64,000 bases of DNA from a virus: positions 32,001 to 96,000 of the IMG/VR virus record IMGVR_UViG_3300036770_005084; one strand, given 5' to 3'. This document shows positions 55,291 to 61,575 of the stretch, in pieces; within the stretch, counting starts at the first letter, position 1, and each line of letters opens with the position of its first letter. The notes beneath the pieces are model-generated. The model was not told the DNA's origin and ran no database searches. It was given only the letters and a program-made list of their open reading frames with translations. The position numbers were made by a program, and so were the translations under genes.

Positions 55291-56125
55291 TGGAGGTTTT
55301 GGAAATAGATTTAATTCATTGATAGTTGGTTTATTAATATCTGAGGTTGGAAATTATAATCCTATTATATCTTGGCCATCTACAAATGTATGTAGAGCAA
55401 AATATTTTGAAATTTTTGAAGATTCTAAAATTAATAATTCTGATAGATTGGAAGAATATATTAAATCTATTGATGATCTTGAATTTGTAATGCATGAAGA
55501 TCAACTATCTTGGGGAATTTCATATACCCATCCAAATTCTTTTATATCAATTGATGATGTTGTAAATTTATATAATAAAAGTTCAAAATCTAAATTATTC
55601 TATTTTAATAATTTAATACCAGACTTTGCCAAATCCTCAAAACTTCTTTCTAAAGTATTGACGAGAATTAAATTTAAACAAGAATTTATTAATGAGGTTG
55701 AAGAATTTATTGAAAAAATTGGCAGTCCATTTATTGGTGTTCATTTGAGGGCAACTGATTTTTCAAGCAATGATAGAATAGACTTTAAAACTATCTATGA
55801 ATTTATTTTAAATAATGATCATCTTAAATTTTTTGTATGTTCTGATTCTAAAGATCTAGAAAATAAATTTTCTAAACTTGAAAATGTGATAGTTAAAGAA
55901 AAGAAAAACTACGTGGAAAAAATTGAAGATACTTATGATTGGAGAGGATCTCGTGGTTTCATTCAAGATGAATATGGTAAAAATTTAAGTTTTAATGTTG
56001 AGAGAAGTAATGATAGTGTGAAGGAAGCAATAATTGATTTGTTAATATTATCAAAGTCTGATATATTAAAGACATCAAATAGTACTTTTTTAGAAACAGC
56101 AATTTTATTGAAAGATTATGGATAA
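55265..56125 (+). CDS. Fucosyltransferase-like (GT-B) protein
   Basis: GGFGNR, GVHLRATD, FVCSD, DLLILS..STF. Confidence 0.75.
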   Translation: MKNLYIHCDGGFGNRFNSLIVGLLISEVGNYNPIISWPSTNVCRAKYFEIFEDSKINNSDRLEEYIKSIDDLEFVMHEDQLSWGISYTHPNSFISIDDVVNLYNKSSKSKLFYFNNLIPDFAKSSKLLSKVLTRIKFKQEFINEVEEFIEKIGSPFIGVHLRATDFSSNDRIDFKTIYEFILNNDHLKFFVCSDSKDLENKFSKLENVIVKEKKNYVEKIEDTYDWRGSRGFIQDEYGKNLSFNVERSNDSVKEAIIDLLILSKSDILKTSNSTFLETAILLKDYG

Positions 56126-56906
56126 AAATAAATCACTATACAAACTTAAAAATTTTGGTCCTGTATATTATTTGAATCTTGATGATCAACCAGAAAGAAA
56201 ACAATATATGGAAGATCAATTCAAGTATTGGGAAATTGAAAACTATACTAGAATTTCTGCATATGATGGTAGAGACGATGATCTAAGTGAAATTATAAAA
56301 GGAAGATATCCTTCATCTATGACATCCGGTGAGATTGGATGTACTACTTCACACCTCAAAGCAATTAAGCATTGGTATGAAACATCAGACAGTCCATATG
56401 CAATAATAATGGAAGATGATTGTATGCTAGATCTTGCAAAGTTTTGGACATTTAACTGGAATGAATTTGTAAATAAATTGCCTTATGATTGGGATGTTGT
56501 TCAACTTGCAATTATTTGTACGGGGAATATTCATGTAAAACTTCATAAGAGATTTGTTAACGATTTTTCTACAGCATCTTATATGATAACCAGACATCAT
56601 GCGGAAAAACTATTAAAAAATCATGTGAGTGGTGATAAGTATAAGTTGGATAATGGTGTTAAACCAAGAGCAGTGGCAGATGATTTAATATATAATTCTG
56701 GCAATACTTTCAGTATCCCTTTATTTTTATATAAAATATCATTAGGATCCACAATTCATCCTGATCATATTGATACTTTCCATAAAAATAGTTATGATGG
56801 AATATTTAATTATTGGAAATCAAATGGACCAATGCTCAATATATCTGATCTAATGGATTATGATCCATATCTTGGAAGGATGACACTTCCCGGAAATGCC
56901 CCTTGA
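56118..56906 (+). CDS. Glycosyltransferase family 25
   Basis: YLNLD..ERK, RISAYDG, GEIGCTTSH, IMEDD. Confidence 0.88.
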   Translation: MDKNKSLYKLKNFGPVYYLNLDDQPERKQYMEDQFKYWEIENYTRISAYDGRDDDLSEIIKGRYPSSMTSGEIGCTTSHLKAIKHWYETSDSPYAIIMEDDCMLDLAKFWTFNWNEFVNKLPYDWDVVQLAIICTGNIHVKLHKRFVNDFSTASYMITRHHAEKLLKNHVSGDKYKLDNGVKPRAVADDLIYNSGNTFSIPLFLYKISLGSTIHPDHIDTFHKNSYDGIFNYWKSNGPMLNISDLMDYDPYLGRMTLPGNAP

Positions 56907-56956: not shown

Positions 56957-57151
56957 ATGACTGTAACAACTAATGATCGTGGTCAACAAAACATGTGGGC
57001 AAAAGAGCCTACCATGTATTACCACAATTATGGTATGCAAACCCCTAACGAATGGAAGGAGACATATAATGGGCGCTGGGCAATGGTCGGTTTTGTTTCT
57101 GGTCTTGTTTCTTATATGGTCACTGGTAATTTCTTCTTCGGGATCTTCTAA
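56957..57151 (+). CDS. hli: High-light-inducible protein (long type)
   Basis: QNMWAKEP; ETYNGRWAMVGF chlorophyll-binding helix. Confidence 0.92.
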   Translation: MTVTTNDRGQQNMWAKEPTMYYHNYGMQTPNEWKETYNGRWAMVGFVSGLVSYMVTGNFFFGIF

Positions 57152-57372: not shown

Positions 57373-57403
57373 AAACCCTCACTAAATAGTGAGGGTTTTT
57401 TTT
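57373..57403 (+). terminator. Terminator hairpin with TAAATA in its loop
   Basis: AAACCCTCACT-aaat-AGTGAGGGTTT followed by a T run. Confidence 0.85.
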
Positions 57404-57406
57404 ATC

Positions 57407-57568
57407 ATGCCAAGAAATCATATAACAAAACAAGAAATAAAAACTTTTGTAGAAAAGTTAAAGACAGAACTATATAACTTAAATTATTATGGATATGGTG
57501 ATCCTAAAGAACTAGCACATAAATATCTCAATAAAGTTATGGATAAAATTCAAGAATATAGGGAGTAG
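57407..57568 (+). CDS. Small hypothetical protein, 53 aa
   Basis: Read manually: MPRNHITK..AHKYLNKVMDKIQEYRE. Confidence 0.6.
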   Translation: MPRNHITKQEIKTFVEKLKTELYNLNYYGYGDPKELAHKYLNKVMDKIQEYRE

Positions 57569-57571
57569 AAA

Positions 57572-58270
57572 ATGCAGATCGATCTACATAACTTCTTTAA
57601 ATACTATGACGAGAAGAATCCAAAGCACGTTGCTGCTGTTGAGCAACTAGAAAAGGATCTTCTCAATTCAGTTAGTAGTCTTATGGAAGATGATGCTAAC
57701 TGGGTTAGAATTTTTAGAAAAAAAGAAGTGATTCCAAAATCAAATATACTTGAAGTTCCTTTTTTCCCACAAACAGATAATTATAGGGATGCAAATAGAA
57801 CTTGTAATTCATCTGCTTGTGCAATGTGTCTTGAGTATTTTAGTCCAGGAACACTTAAAGGACCTAACGGTGATGATCAATATGTACAGAAGGTCTTTGC
57901 AATTGGTGACACCACAGACCATCTAGTACAGACTAAAGTTTTAAATTCATACGGAATTAAATCTACTTTCTCGTATACTCTTACTTTTGCAGATCTTGAT
58001 AGAGAGATTGCTTCTGGCAGACCTATTGTTATTGGAATTCTTCATCGAGGACCTATTTCCAATCCAACCGGAGGACACATGGTAGTTGTGATTGGTAAAA
58101 CTCCATCAGGTGACTATGTTGTAAATGATCCTTATGGTTCACTTAACGATGGTTATACTGGTGCAGTTACTAACGGCAAAGGTGCTATCTATAAAAAATC
58201 TGATTTATCCCGTAGATGGGTTCCTAATGGTAATGATGGTTGGGGAAGAATCTTTGACGTAAAAAAGTAG
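57572..58270 (+). CDS. C39-like cysteine peptidase (putative cell-wall peptidase)
   Basis: VPFFPQTDN, TCNSSACAM, GGHMVVVIG, VNDPYG. Confidence 0.85.
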   Translation: MQIDLHNFFKYYDEKNPKHVAAVEQLEKDLLNSVSSLMEDDANWVRIFRKKEVIPKSNILEVPFFPQTDNYRDANRTCNSSACAMCLEYFSPGTLKGPNGDDQYVQKVFAIGDTTDHLVQTKVLNSYGIKSTFSYTLTFADLDREIASGRPIVIGILHRGPISNPTGGHMVVVIGKTPSGDYVVNDPYGSLNDGYTGAVTNGKGAIYKKSDLSRRWVPNGNDGWGRIFDVKK

Positions 58271-58330
58271 AATCAACATCACAAAAAGTCCCTCAGTGTG
58301 GTGTTGATTTAATTAAAGAATTTGAGGGGT
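58261..58330 (+). promoter_or_regulatory. Putative programmed -1 ribosomal frameshift signal
   Basis: A_AAA_AAG directly before TAG; 13-bp stem 58271-83/58297-309; loop CCCTCA pairs with TGAGGG at 58323. Confidence 0.8.
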
Positions 58331-58746
58331 GTCACTTGAATGCTTATCCTGATCCATTAACTGGGGGACTTCCAATCACAATTGGATGGGGTTCTACTAA
58401 AGACTTTGATGGAAATTCATTTAAATTGGGAAGAACTATTTCTCAAGATTATGCAAACAGATTGTTAACGTATGACATTGAAAATAGATTTATTCCTACA
58501 CTACAAAAGATACCTTACTGGGGGGAGATGAATGACAACCAACGTGGGGCACTTTTATCCTTTGCTTACAATCTCGGTGCTGGCTTCTATGGCAACAGCA
58601 ATTTCAATACTATTACCCGCAATCTACGTGAGAAGAATTGGAAGGCAATCCCAGAAACATTAAAACTATATCGTAATCCTGGATCAAATGTTGAAGCAGG
58701 ATTGCTTAGAAGACGTGCTGCTGAAGGTAAACTTTGGAATTCTTAA
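58261..58746 (+). CDS. GH24 lysozyme domain in the -1 frame (C-terminal part of predicted 391-aa peptidase-lysozyme fusion)
   Basis: LIKEFEGCHLNAYPD..TIGWGST, ALLSFAYNLG, GLLRRRAAE; no ATG/GTG/TTG between TGA 58255 and the catalytic Glu. Confidence 0.85.
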   Translation, partial: KKVESTSQKVPQCGVDLIKEFEGCHLNAYPDPLTGGLPITIGWGSTKDFDGNSFKLGRTISQDYANRLLTYDIENRFIPTLQKIPYWGEMNDNQRGALLSFAYNLGAGFYGNSNFNTITRNLREKNWKAIPETLKLYRNPGSNVEAGLLRRRAAEGKLWNS

Positions 58747-60495: not shown

Positions 60496-61575
60496 ATGAC
60501 TGCAACTATCGCCCAACAGCGGAGTAGCAACACTTGGGAGCAATTTTGCGAGTGGGTCACTTCAACCGATAATCGTCTGTATGTCGGTTGGTTTGGAACT
60601 CTAATGATTCCAACCCTTCTTGCTGCTACTATTTGCTTCATCGTTGCTTTTATTGCTGCACCTCCCGTCGATATTGACGGTATCCGTGAACCAGTTGCTG
60701 GTTCACTCATGTATGGAAACAACATCATTTCTGGTGCTGTTGTTCCTTCATCCAATGCTATTGGACTTCACTTCTATCCCATCTGGGAAGCTGCTTCTCT
60801 TGACGAGTGGCTATATAATGGTGGACCATTCCAACTGGTCGTCTTCCACTTTCTGATTGGTATCTATGCCTACATGGGTCGTGAATGGGAACTATCTTAC
60901 CGACTGGGTATGCGTCCTTGGATTTGTGTTGCCTACTCAGCACCCGTTGCTGCTGCTAGTGCAGTTTTCCTGGTCTATCCCTTCGGTCAAGGATCCTTCT
61001 CTGATGCGATGCCTCTGGGGATTTCGGGAACTTTCAACTACATGCTTGTTTTCCAGGCAGAACACAACATTCTTATGCATCCTTTCCACATGCTGGGAGT
61101 TGCTGGTGTCTTCGGTGGTTCTCTTTTCTCTGCTATGCATGGATCTCTTGTCACCTCTAGTCTTGTACGTGAGACTACAGAAAATGAGTCTCAGAACTAT
61201 GGATACAAGTTTGGACAAGAAGAAGAGACCTACAACATTGTAGCTGCTCACGGTTATTTTGGTCGTCTTATTTTCCAATATGCTTCCTTCAATAACTCAC
61301 GTTCACTGCACTTCTTCCTTGCTGCTTGGCCTGTAGTTGGTATCTGGTTTGCTGCTCTTGGTGTTAGCACCATGGCATTCAACCTCAACGGTTTCAACTT
61401 CAACCAGTCCCTGCTGTCTTCTGACGGTCGTGTAGTCAACACTTGGGCAGACATCCTCAATCGTGCAAATCTTGGATTTGAAGTAATGCACGAACGAAAT
61501 GCTCATAACTTCCCTCTCGATCTTGCTGCTGCTGATAGCACTCCTGTTGCTCTTACCGCACCTGCAATCGGTTGA
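60496..61575 (+). CDS. psbA: Photosystem II D1 protein
   Basis: Unmistakable D1 sequence; no intron; REWELSY (Glu130 form). Confidence 0.99.

What the first reader, a model, noticed from the sequence alone, without database searches (positions are those of the whole stretch)
57572..58746. Probable programmed -1 frameshift with pseudoknot fusing a C39-like peptidase to a start-less lysozyme
Seen: the peptidase ends GTA AAA AAG TAG, placing the heptamer A_AAA_AAG at 58261-58267. The -1 frame opens after TGA 58255 and reads KKVESTSQKVPQCGVDLIKEFEGCHLNAYPD... It has no start codon before the GH24 catalytic Glu (EFEG); the track's TTG start at 58336 would omit that residue. Directly downstream is a 13-bp stem (AATCAACATCACA 58271-83 / TGTGGTGTTGATT 58297-309, one G-U). 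Its loop CCCTCA pairs with TGAGGG at 58323-28, giving an H-type pseudoknot. An SD-like GGGGA lies about 14 nt upstream. Known: A_AAA_AAG with an upstream SD and 3' structure is the dnaX/IS3-type signal; in phages -1 shifts are best known in tail chaperone and capsid genes. Inference: one locus yields a 232-aa peptidase and a 391-aa two-activity peptidoglycan hydrolase at a set ratio, i.e. recoding control of a lysis enzyme.
Basis: partly seen in the sequence, partly recalled or inferred. Interest (0 to 1): 0.9.

Follow-up and report, generated by a model that had tools for sequence, protein, structure and literature searches.

The report
Frameshift-made cyanophage peptidase-lysozyme lysin
In this freshwater T4-like cyanophage, as in the lab phage S-PM2 and dozens of relatives, a lysozyme with no start codon is most likely made only when ribosomes slip back one base at the end of a peptidase gene, so one locus gives a short peptidase and a long peptidase-lysozyme; the mechanism is textbook, its use for a lysis enzyme seems unreported, and no protein has yet been looked at.

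Summary
A C39-like peptidase ORF (57572-58270) ends in A_AAA_AAG + TAG. A GH24 lysozyme follows in the -1 frame, which opens only 10 nt before that stop and has no ATG/GTG/TTG before its catalytic Glu. A 13-14 bp stem follows. Among 88 distinct homologous junctions, 70 have the lysozyme in the -1 frame and none in +1. 58 of the 70 carry in-frame A_AAA_AAG, and all 9 without a slippery run have their own ATG/GTG at the stop. The heptamer is kept at the nucleotide level, not the amino-acid level. Stems of unrelated sequence occupy the same place, with compensatory changes. The start-less lysozyme is under purifying selection. In-frame fusions of the same two domains exist in relatives. Candidate hosts show only tRNA-Lys(UUU). 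I read this as a dnaX/IS3-type -1 frameshift (about 0.85). The pseudoknot is inconclusive, and the SD-like motif is forced by Trp-Gly codons. New leads: inverse (dnaX-like) and A7 in-frame variants, and a predicted dimerising N-terminal module shared by both products. This scan has reached the same reading on other genomes several times. I found no publication. All evidence is comparative.

The parts
57572..58270 (+). Zero-frame ORF: 232-aa C39-like (papain-fold) cysteine peptidase, the short product
   Evidence: ORF list. Pfam PF13529 E 2.6e-13. Q67, C78, H169 and D186 are invariant in 66 diverse relatives. AF2 model pLDDT 94.3, Foldseek hits to C39-like 3ERV, PCAT/ComA peptidase domains and PeiR.
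57572..57724 (+). N-terminal helical module (residues 1-51), shared by the short and long products; predicted dimer interface
   Evidence: Helices 5-8, 17-33, 35-38 and 43-49 in the model. The homodimer prediction places the whole interface in residues 1-51.
58255..58257 (+). TGA that closes the -1 frame upstream; a shift can give a fusion only between here and the TAG
   Evidence: Sequence. The same 10-13 nt overlap is seen in nearly all related loci.
58261..58267 (+). Slippery heptamer A_AAA_AAG in the zero frame
   Evidence: Sequence. Present in 58 of 70 distinct -1 junctions. In the 54 examined, the X base is always A across Ala/Val/Thr/Glu codons and the second Lys codon is always AAG.
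58268..58270 (+). Zero-frame stop TAG directly after the heptamer
   Evidence: Sequence. A stop abuts the heptamer in 44 of 54 distinct junctions.
58270..58310 (+). Stem-loop: arms 58270-58283 and 58297-58310 (14 bp with two G-U), 13-nt loop
   Evidence: Folds. In 23 class-A sequences, 97.5% of cells are paired against 35-49% when slid, and 5 of 14 pairs show compensatory changes.
58288..58329 (+). Candidate pseudoknot: loop GUCCCUCAG (58288-58296) with UUGAGGGGU (58321-58329); not established
   Evidence: Up to 9 nt of complementarity in class A. No double-sided change in a fixed register, and the pair breaks when GAG becomes GAA. Not above chance in the other stem classes.
58267..58746 (+). 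-1 frame continuation: linker plus GH24 lysozyme (159 aa added to give the 391-aa long product), stop TAA 58744-58746
   Evidence: Pfam PF00959 E 2.5e-23. FEG / YPD / TIGWG motifs. dN/dS median 0.15 in 44 start-less relatives. It is the only GH24 in the 155-kb contig.
58242..58246 (+). SD-like GGGGA 14 nt upstream of the heptamer; no independent support as a signal
   Evidence: It is part of the invariant Gly-Trp-Gly-Arg codons. The third positions vary, and the same motif occurs in peptidases without a downstream lysozyme.

Best explanation
The locus is a dnaX/IS3-type -1 programmed ribosomal frameshift cassette inside a cyanophage lysis-enzyme gene.

Mechanism proposed:
- Ribosomes translating the peptidase reach A_AAA_AAG, with Lys codons in the P and A sites.
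- They are held up by the stem-loop that starts a few bases downstream and by the adjacent TAG.
- A fraction re-pair both tRNA-Lys(UUU) one base back and continue in the -1 frame.
- That frame encodes a short linker and a GH24 lysozyme.

Non-shifted ribosomes stop at TAG and release the 232-aa peptidase. Shifted ribosomes make a 391-aa peptidase-lysozyme. Both products carry the same N-terminal helical module and may therefore pair.

Shown here: the anatomy, its conservation and covariation, selection on the lysozyme, and the natural occurrence of the fused architecture.

Inferred: that shifting happens, its efficiency, the peptidoglycan substrate of the peptidase, and any pairing.
For: 1. Anatomy in the window.

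2. The six-A run is not an error.
- It is identical in two other assemblies.
- The same signal is in three S-PM2 records, two of the wild type and one of a deletion mutant.
- It is seen in more than 100 contigs.

3. Phasing across 88 distinct junctions.
- 70 are in the -1 frame, 0 in +1 and 18 in-frame.
- 58 of the 70 carry in-frame A_AAA_AAG inside a 10-13 nt overlap, and 24 of the 65 junctions first examined have no ATG/GTG/TTG at all before the catalytic Glu.
- All 9 junctions without a slippery run have ATG/GTG at the stop. None lacks both.

4. The heptamer is kept as nucleotides, not as amino acids.
- The codon holding X is GCA 26, GTA 24, ACA 3 and GAA 1.
- A is the third base in only 33% of Val/Ala codons elsewhere in these genes.
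- The second Lys codon is AAG in 54 of 54, against 31% elsewhere.

5. Stems.
- dG is -9 to -28 kcal/mol and the spacer 0-8 nt, 2-8 in all but one junction.
- Median z is -4.6, against -0.3 in in-frame fusions without a heptamer (Mann-Whitney p 1.6e-7, not corrected for phylogeny).
- Class A has 5 of 14 pairs with compensatory changes.
- At least three unrelated helix sequences occupy the same position.

6. The start-less lysozyme is intact in 44 loci, with median dN/dS 0.15.

7. The fused protein is a real architecture.
- ACG-2014f gp211 is a 405-aa in-frame fusion.
- PHROG 3617 covers both halves colinearly.
- Many PF00959+PF13529 proteins of about 390-430 aa exist.

8. Four candidate host picocyanobacteria (psbA 91-94% identical) have tRNA-Lys(UUU), and no CUU isoacceptor was found. 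The review PMC5009743 ties this condition to the high shiftiness of A_AAA_AAG.
Against: - No protein, ribosome-profiling or reporter data exist; everything is comparative.
- Nine heptamer-bearing junctions also have an ATG/GTG near the stop, so part of the heptamer's conservation could be shared ancestry.
- The spacer in class A is only 2-3 nt to the first (weak, A-U/G-U) pairs.
- Covariation within stem classes B and C does not exceed shuffles.
- The SD-like element has no independent support.
- A_AAA_AAG has not been tested on cyanobacterial ribosomes.
- The host genomes examined are incomplete MAGs chosen by psbA likeness, not proven hosts.
Confidence: 0.85

Rival explanations
1. The lysozyme is translated on its own, by termination-reinitiation at the TAG or by initiation at a non-canonical codon (for example the ATT of the Leu-Ile-Lys-Glu-Phe-Glu-Gly stretch). 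On this reading the heptamer and stem serve coupling or are incidental.
For: Some relatives are clearly coupled gene pairs with ATGA or GTGA overlaps: S-SRM01, L042, L074 and L123. This shows that separate expression is viable in this family. An ATT codon lies 4 codons before the catalytic Glu in the window.
Against: 24 distinct junctions have no ATG/GTG/TTG before the catalytic Glu. The protein-level conserved segment (Ile/Val-Pro ... Gly-Val-x-Leu-Ile-Lys) lies upstream of any near-cognate codon, so it must be translated. Nucleotide-level selection of X_XXY_YYZ in the zero frame and of AAG, never AAA, is not predicted by reinitiation. Junctions with their own start lose the heptamer and the strong stem.
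Confidence: 0.07
2. RNA polymerase slippage on the A run (or the T8 run in the S-CAM7 clade) adds one base to some transcripts. Ordinary translation of those transcripts then gives the fusion.
For: In-frame A7 variants exist in nature (L108-L111, L112). The S-CAM7 clade has a T8 run instead of A_AAA_AAG. Runs of about 9 A or T are known transcriptional slippage sites (PMC5009743).
Against: Six A is short for efficient polymerase slippage. The run is never lengthened to A7 by using AAA for the second Lys in the 54 heptamer junctions examined, although AAA is the commoner codon. A conserved downstream RNA stem at frameshift spacing is a ribosomal stimulator and is not needed for polymerase slippage. 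Candidate hosts show the single tRNA-Lys that favours ribosomal slippage.
Confidence: 0.05
3. There is no recoding. The six-A run is a sequencing or assembly error of an in-frame gene, or the lysozyme is a decaying pseudogene.
For: Five contigs show seven A and an uninterrupted fusion ORF.
Against: Six A is found in over 100 contigs from many samples, in two further assemblies of this same phage, and in three S-PM2 records. The lysozyme ORFs are all intact, with dN/dS 0.15 at dS about 1.4.
Confidence: 0.02

Closest known systems
E. coli dnaX tau/gamma -1 frameshift cassette (review PMC5009743)
   Same: Both use the heptamer A_AAA_AAG with a downstream stem-loop, and both give two products that share an N-terminal part. 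The review also describes a reversed arrangement in a few bacteria: the long product comes from the shift and the zero-frame stop lies directly after the site. That is the layout in this window. The E. coli layout (the -1 frame stops one codon later) is mirrored by ACG-2014f and L113.
   Different: The gene class differs: a phage cell-wall hydrolase rather than a DNA polymerase subunit. The upstream SD stimulator is not supported here. Efficiency is unknown. The stems differ in sequence between lineages.
IS3-family transposase OrfA/OrfAB -1 frameshift, e.g. IS911 (own knowledge; IS911 structure mentioned in PMC5009743)
   Same: A_AAA_AAG lies near the end of the upstream ORF. The shifted product is a fusion that adds a catalytic domain with no start of its own. 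There is a downstream structure.
   Different: It is not a mobile element. Here the two halves are both enzymes acting (by inference) on one substrate, not a regulator plus a transposase.
Two-product endolysin loci made by other means: Ms6 LysA Lysin384/Lysin241 (internal in-frame start), phi-vML3, PlyC (PMC3111421)
   Same: One lysis locus gives two related or cooperating proteins. In some of these systems the products associate.
   Different: Those use internal starts, overlapping genes or two separate genes. None uses a -1 frameshift. Here the short form is the N-terminal, not the C-terminal, part.
In-frame C39_2 + GH24 fusion lysins of Kyanoviridae (ACG-2014f gp211; PHROG 3617; S-CREM1 in reverse order)
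   Same: They have the same two domains, the same N-terminal module and a similar linker length.
   Different: They are a single ORF. Most lack both the heptamer and a significant stem.

Membership tests
-1 programmed ribosomal frameshift cassette (dnaX / IS3 type) | Slippery heptamer X_XXY_YYZ in the zero frame, at the only place where a shift joins the two ORFs | tested here: met
   A_AAA_AAG at 58261-58267 lies inside a 10-nt overlap. It is conserved in 58 of 70 distinct -1 junctions and is selected at synonymous sites.
-1 programmed ribosomal frameshift cassette (dnaX / IS3 type) | The downstream ORF is in the -1 frame, lacks its own initiation and is under selection | tested here: met
   70 junctions are in -1 and none in +1. 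24 junctions have no common start codon. dN/dS is 0.15.
-1 programmed ribosomal frameshift cassette (dnaX / IS3 type) | Stimulatory RNA structure a few nucleotides 3' of the heptamer, supported by covariation | tested here: met
   Stems have z -2.4 to -7.6 and a spacer of 0-8 nt, 2-8 in all but one junction. Class A has 5 compensatory pairs. Different helix sequences occupy the same place. Controls without a heptamer show no structure.
-1 programmed ribosomal frameshift cassette (dnaX / IS3 type) | Upstream SD-like stimulator 10-14 nt 5' of the heptamer (dnaX feature) | tested here: inconclusive
   GGGGA is at the right distance, but it is forced by the invariant Trp-Gly codons and is also present in peptidases without a lysozyme.
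-1 programmed ribosomal frameshift cassette (dnaX / IS3 type) | The host decodes AAA and AAG with a single tRNA-Lys(UUU) | tested here: met
   tRNA-Lys(UUU) was found in 4 of 5 candidate host genomes. No CUU isoacceptor appeared by pattern or by similarity search. Caveat: these are incomplete MAGs and presumed hosts.
-1 programmed ribosomal frameshift cassette (dnaX / IS3 type) | A frameshifted protein product is observed | not testable with these tools
   No proteomic, profiling or read data could be reached.
H-type pseudoknot stimulator | A second helix between the hairpin loop and downstream sequence, kept by covariation | tested here: inconclusive
   There are 6-9 nt of complementarity in class A. 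There is no double-sided change, the 3' strand is the Phe-Glu-Gly codons, the pair breaks when GAG becomes GAA, and nothing exceeds chance in classes B and C.
GH24 phage lysozyme (Pfam PF00959) | Profile match above the gathering score, with the catalytic Glu and the Asp/Thr motif positions | tested here: met
   83.2 bits against a cut-off of 22.3, covering profile positions 1-125. The FEG, YPD and TIGWG motifs are present and invariant in the fusions.
Peptidase_C39_2 (Pfam PF13529), papain-fold cysteine peptidase | Profile match above the gathering score, a Gln/Cys/His/Asp set and a papain-like fold | tested here: met
   51.2 bits against a cut-off of 24. Q67, C78, H169 and D186 are invariant. 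Foldseek gives probability 1.0 to 3ERV, PCAT1 and ComA peptidase domains. The substrate was not tested.

The most novel reading that the evidence does not exclude
The frameshift sets the stoichiometry of an oligomeric lysin. The short peptidase and the long peptidase-lysozyme would pair through their shared N-terminal helical module of about 50 aa.

Lineages seem to toggle by single-base changes between four ways of making the same assembly:
- long form by -1 shift (this window, S-PM2);
- long form in frame with the short form by -1 shift, dnaX-like (ACG-2014f, L113);
- plain in-frame fusion;
- two coupled genes in which the lysozyme carries its own copy of the module (L123 type).

Leads:
- Homodimer prediction: ipSAE 0.50, best of 3 controls 0.00. 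The mark was reached by 20 of 30 proteins solved as pairs of one chain and by 1 of 23 solved as single chains. The runs agree in at least 98% of contacts, the partner's pLDDT is at least 82, and the interface is residues 1-51 only.
- hhalign of the split lysozymes' N-extension against the peptidase module: probability 61%, E 8e-5.
Probability: 0.3. Interest if true: 0.7.

Novelty: new member of a known kind. Interest (0 to 1): 0.6.

Why it matters
Phage lysis enzymes are normally thought of as plain single ORFs. Here a whole lineage of abundant freshwater and marine cyanophages, including the models S-PM2 and S-CAM7, appears to make its only GH24 lysozyme by recoding.

Current annotations therefore truncate or miss the enzyme. 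S-PM2 'putative lysin' is annotated at 72 aa, S-CAM7 'lysin' at 90 aa, and PHROG 10457 is a 95-position fragment family.

The case is directly testable in a culturable system. It adds a gene class to the short list of bacterial and phage -1 frameshift cases. Natural variants (A6/A7, inverse, split, fused) allow a test of why a fixed ratio of a one-domain and a two-domain hydrolase would be selected.

Tried and rejected
I used independent assemblies instead.
- AF2 of a natural full-length fusion (L108, 15-row alignment) gave pLDDT 57 and was not used for fold search.
- A sequence search of the peptidase against PDB chains found nothing at E up to 1.
- BLASTP of the split lysozymes' N-extension against the peptidase N-module was not significant (E 0.11). 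Only the profile comparison gave a moderate signal.
- Covariation within stem classes B and C did not exceed shuffles. Pairing is high but mostly invariant.
- The pseudoknot in a fixed register shows no compensatory change.
- The SD-like element is rejected as independent evidence.
- The claim in the PRFect paper that 'lysins' are known to contain frameshifts traces to phi-vML3. That is a lysin plus a holin-like protein from overlapping genes, not a PRF fusion. The original paper, PMC201772, is not held.
- Pseudogene and sequencing error are rejected.
Full report
**What is in the window**

The window belongs to a 155-kb, 32.6% G+C virus contig with psbA and an hli-like gene, so it is a Kyanoviridae-like cyanophage. 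Its nearest isolate at this locus is Synechococcus phage S-SRM01 (73% nucleotide identity).

- The ORF 57572-58270 encodes a 232-aa Peptidase_C39_2 protein. It ends GTA AAA AAG TAG.
- The -1 frame is closed by TGA at 58255-58257. It then runs open to TAA 58744-58746 and encodes a complete GH24 lysozyme, matching Pfam PF00959 from its first position.
- No ATG, GTG or TTG precedes the catalytic Glu of the FEG motif. The first, TTG 58336, lies after it.
- The only stretch in which a change of frame can join the two ORFs is about 10 nt long. It is filled by the heptamer A_AAA_AAG (58261-58267).
- A 13-14 bp stem follows (58270-58283 with 58297-58310). Its free energy is -17.4 kcal/mol, with z -2.9 against dinucleotide shuffles.

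**Not an error**

- Two other metagenome assemblies of the same phage carry the identical junction with six A.
- The same signal is present in S-PM2 in three records, two of the wild type and one of a deletion mutant.
- It is seen in more than a hundred IMG/VR contigs.
- I could not lay raw reads.

**Comparative anatomy**

I collected 170 related loci and reduced them to 88 distinct junction sequences.

| Arrangement | Distinct junctions |
|---|---|
| Lysozyme in -1 frame: A_AAA_AAG, no start near the stop | 49 |
| Lysozyme in -1 frame: A_AAA_AAG plus ATG/GTG near the stop | 9 |
| Lysozyme in -1 frame: T-run (S-CAM7 clade) | 2 |
| Lysozyme in -1 frame: A_AAA_AAA with its own ATG | 1 |
| Lysozyme in -1 frame: no slippery run, own ATG/GTG overlapping the stop | 9 |
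| In frame with the peptidase | 18 |
| Lysozyme in +1 frame | 0 |

- No junction lacks both a slippery run and a start.
- Among the 65 junctions of the first tally, 24 have no common start codon at all before the catalytic Glu. In another 22 the only ones are incidental TTG/GTG codons inside the linker or the Asp-Leu codons.
- Peptidases with no lysozyme downstream lack the Lys-Lys tail.

**The heptamer is selected as RNA**

Among the 54 distinct heptamer junctions of the first tally:
- The codon that supplies the first A encodes Ala (GCA, 26), Val (GTA, 24), Thr (ACA, 3) or Glu (GAA, 1).
- Its third base is always A, although A is the third base of only 33% of Val/Ala codons elsewhere in these genes.
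- The second Lys codon is AAG in 54 of 54, although AAG makes up 31% of Lys codons elsewhere.
- A zero-frame stop abuts the heptamer in 44 of 54.

The strict AAG, never the longer run AAA, fits ribosomal rather than polymerase slippage. [quoted passage not shown]

**The stem**

- In junctions with a heptamer and no start of their own, a stable hairpin begins 0-8 nt after the heptamer, 2-8 nt in all but one junction (dG -9 to -28 kcal/mol, z -2.4 to -7.6).
- In-frame fusions without a heptamer encode the same linker and lysozyme N-terminus but show no excess structure. Median z is -0.3 against -4.6 (Mann-Whitney p 1.6e-7, not corrected for relatedness).
- Junctions with their own start and no heptamer also lack the stem.
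- In the window's class (23 distinct sequences), 97.5% of cells are paired against 35-49% when the partner is slid. Five of 14 pairs show changes on both sides.
- These changes alter the encoded linker residues, so pairing is kept at the expense of the protein sequence.
- Other lineages have helices of unrelated sequence at the same place. The 3' arm always lies in the conserved lysozyme N-terminus, and the 5' arm in the otherwise free linker.
- Within those other classes the pairing is 93%, but covariation does not exceed shuffles.

**The lysozyme is expressed and needs upstream translation**

- In 44 start-less loci the ORF is intact (145-152 codons from the Leu-Ile-Lys-Glu-Phe-Glu-Gly stretch). 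Median dN/dS is 0.15 at dS about 1.4.
- Residues upstream of any near-cognate codon (Ile/Val-Pro ... Gly-Val-x-Leu-Ile-Lys) are conserved in the start-less, self-starting and fused forms alike.
- It is the only GH24 in the contig.

**The fusion is a natural protein**

- ACG-2014f gp211 is a 405-aa in-frame C39_2 + lysozyme protein. S-CREM1 has the reverse order.
- PHROG 3617 (405 positions) aligns the window's peptidase to positions 1-235 and its lysozyme to 241-405.
- A search for longer relatives of the lysozyme lists dozens of PF00959+PF13529 proteins of about 390-430 aa.
- The C39_2 core of this subfamily is also found fused to GH108 + PG_binding_3 and to Amidase_2. The lysozyme is found fused to YkuD, M15 and PG_binding_1 domains.
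- These are the pattern of modular cell-wall lysins.
- The peptidase folds with high confidence (pLDDT 94.3). It is papain-like, nearest to a C39-like protein of B. anthracis (3ERV) and to PCAT/ComA peptidase domains, with a pseudomurein endoisopeptidase (PeiR) further down the list.
- Gln67, Cys78, His169 and Asp186 are invariant in 66 diverse relatives.
- Its substrate is inferred, not shown.

**Toggling between layouts**

- Five contigs (L108-L111, L112, in two stem classes) have seven A. They read through in frame with the stem still present.
- L113 and the ACG-2014f clade are in frame but keep an in-frame A_AAA_AAG. A hairpin follows 5-6 nt later, and a -1 frame TGA lies one codon after the site. 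A shift there would give the short form.
- This is the E. coli dnaX logic. [quoted passage not shown]
- The S-CAM7 clade (three contigs, 88-98% alike) replaces the heptamer by a T8 run, followed by a stop and its own hairpin. Its nearest relatives are plain in-frame fusions. There, polymerase slippage is a serious alternative.

**Host tRNA**

- The phage contig has five tRNA genes, none for Lys.
- Five picocyanobacterial genomes with the most similar psbA (91-94% identity) were searched by anticodon-arm pattern and by similarity. Four have one tRNA-Lys(UUU). No CUU isoacceptor was found. The next most similar tRNAs are Asn, Thr and Gly.
- These are incomplete MAGs and presumed hosts, so this is consistent with high shiftiness of A_AAA_AAG but does not prove it.

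**Pseudoknot and SD**

- In the window's class the loop can pair with the Phe-Glu-Gly codons over 6-9 nt. The GAG rather than GAA choice tracks the CCUC loop.
- However, there is no double-sided change in a fixed register. The pair breaks where GAG becomes GAA. The other stem classes, including S-PM2's, show nothing above chance. I leave the pseudoknot as possible and lineage-specific.
- The GGGG upstream is dictated by Trp-Gly codons. Its flanking third positions vary, and it is also present where no lysozyme follows.

**A possible reason for two forms**

- A homodimer prediction of the 232-aa product passed its controls. The score is 0.50 and the best of 3 controls is 0.00.
- The mark was reached by 20 of 30 proteins solved as pairs of one chain and by 1 of 23 solved as single chains. 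The runs agree in at least 98% of contacts, and the partner's pLDDT is at least 82.
- The whole interface lies in residues 1-51, the small helical module that both products share.
- In the split-gene loci without a heptamer (L123 type), the separately started lysozyme carries an N-terminal extension of about 45 aa. It aligns end to end with that module in a profile comparison (probability 61%, E 8e-5). BLASTP alone is not significant.
- This is a lead, not a finding. The model supports binding; it does not show it.

**Novelty and limits**

- Full-text searches for cyanophage, S-PM2 or endolysin with frameshift found no report of this case.
- Isolate annotations truncate the lysin instead.
- Known two-product endolysins use internal starts or separate genes.
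- Earlier reports of this scan reached the same reading on other genomes. One of them gave me the lead for the pairing test and another the review I read.
- The mechanism itself is textbook, and no product has been observed.

Noticed in passing
L085:2140-2260 (ACG-2014f), L113 junction: These in-frame peptidase-lysozyme fusions keep an in-frame A_AAA_AAG, a hairpin 5-6 nt downstream and a -1 frame TGA one codon after the site. A shift there would give the short form, which is the E. coli dnaX layout and the inverse of the window's.
   Followed up: partly
L108-L111 and L112 junctions: Seven A instead of six makes the two domains one ORF, while the stem-loop is still present. This occurs in two different stem classes and in contigs from five samples. 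It could be natural A6/A7 polymorphism or homopolymer miscalls.
   Followed up: partly
L086:1880-1935 (S-CAM7), L297, L298: The S-CAM7 clade has a T8 run, a stop and its own hairpin in place of A_AAA_AAG. Its closest relatives are plain in-frame fusions. This could be U_UUU_UUU frameshifting or polymerase slippage.
   Followed up: partly
L123:2190-2804, also L128, L131, L134, L138, L152: These are split-gene relatives with an ATGA overlap and no heptamer. Their lysozyme has an extra N-terminal segment of about 45 aa that resembles the peptidase's N-terminal module.
   Followed up: partly
window 57373-57405: An 11-bp G+C-containing hairpin is followed by a T run (terminator-like) just upstream of the small ORF that precedes the peptidase. 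The GTG start of the listed 59-aa ORF lies inside it, so the ATG at 57408 (53 aa) is the likelier start. The small ORF, the peptidase and the lysozyme look like one transcription unit.
   Followed up: no
window 56957-57151: A 64-aa ORF carries an ...NGRWAMVGF... motif and looks like a high-light-inducible (Hli) protein. A GT25 glycosyltransferase lies at 56118-56906 and psbA at 60496-61575.
   Followed up: no
P0185, P0187, P0195, P0268: Filamentous cyanobacteria encode this lysozyme, or the C39_2 core, fused to DUF4231/SLATT_3 two-helix membrane domains. This combines a conflict-system effector module with a cell-wall hydrolase.
   Followed up: no
P0121: A 1985-aa protein from a eukaryotic transcriptome assembly carries a lysozyme 54% identical to the window's. 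It could be contamination, a phage or cyanobacterial read-through, or a real transfer.
   Followed up: no
L083:2460-2678 (S-PM2d154), L086:2145-2417 (S-CAM7 gp246), PHROG 10457: Public annotations call only the C-terminal 72-90 aa of the lysozyme, and a PHROG family is built from such fragments.
   Followed up: yes
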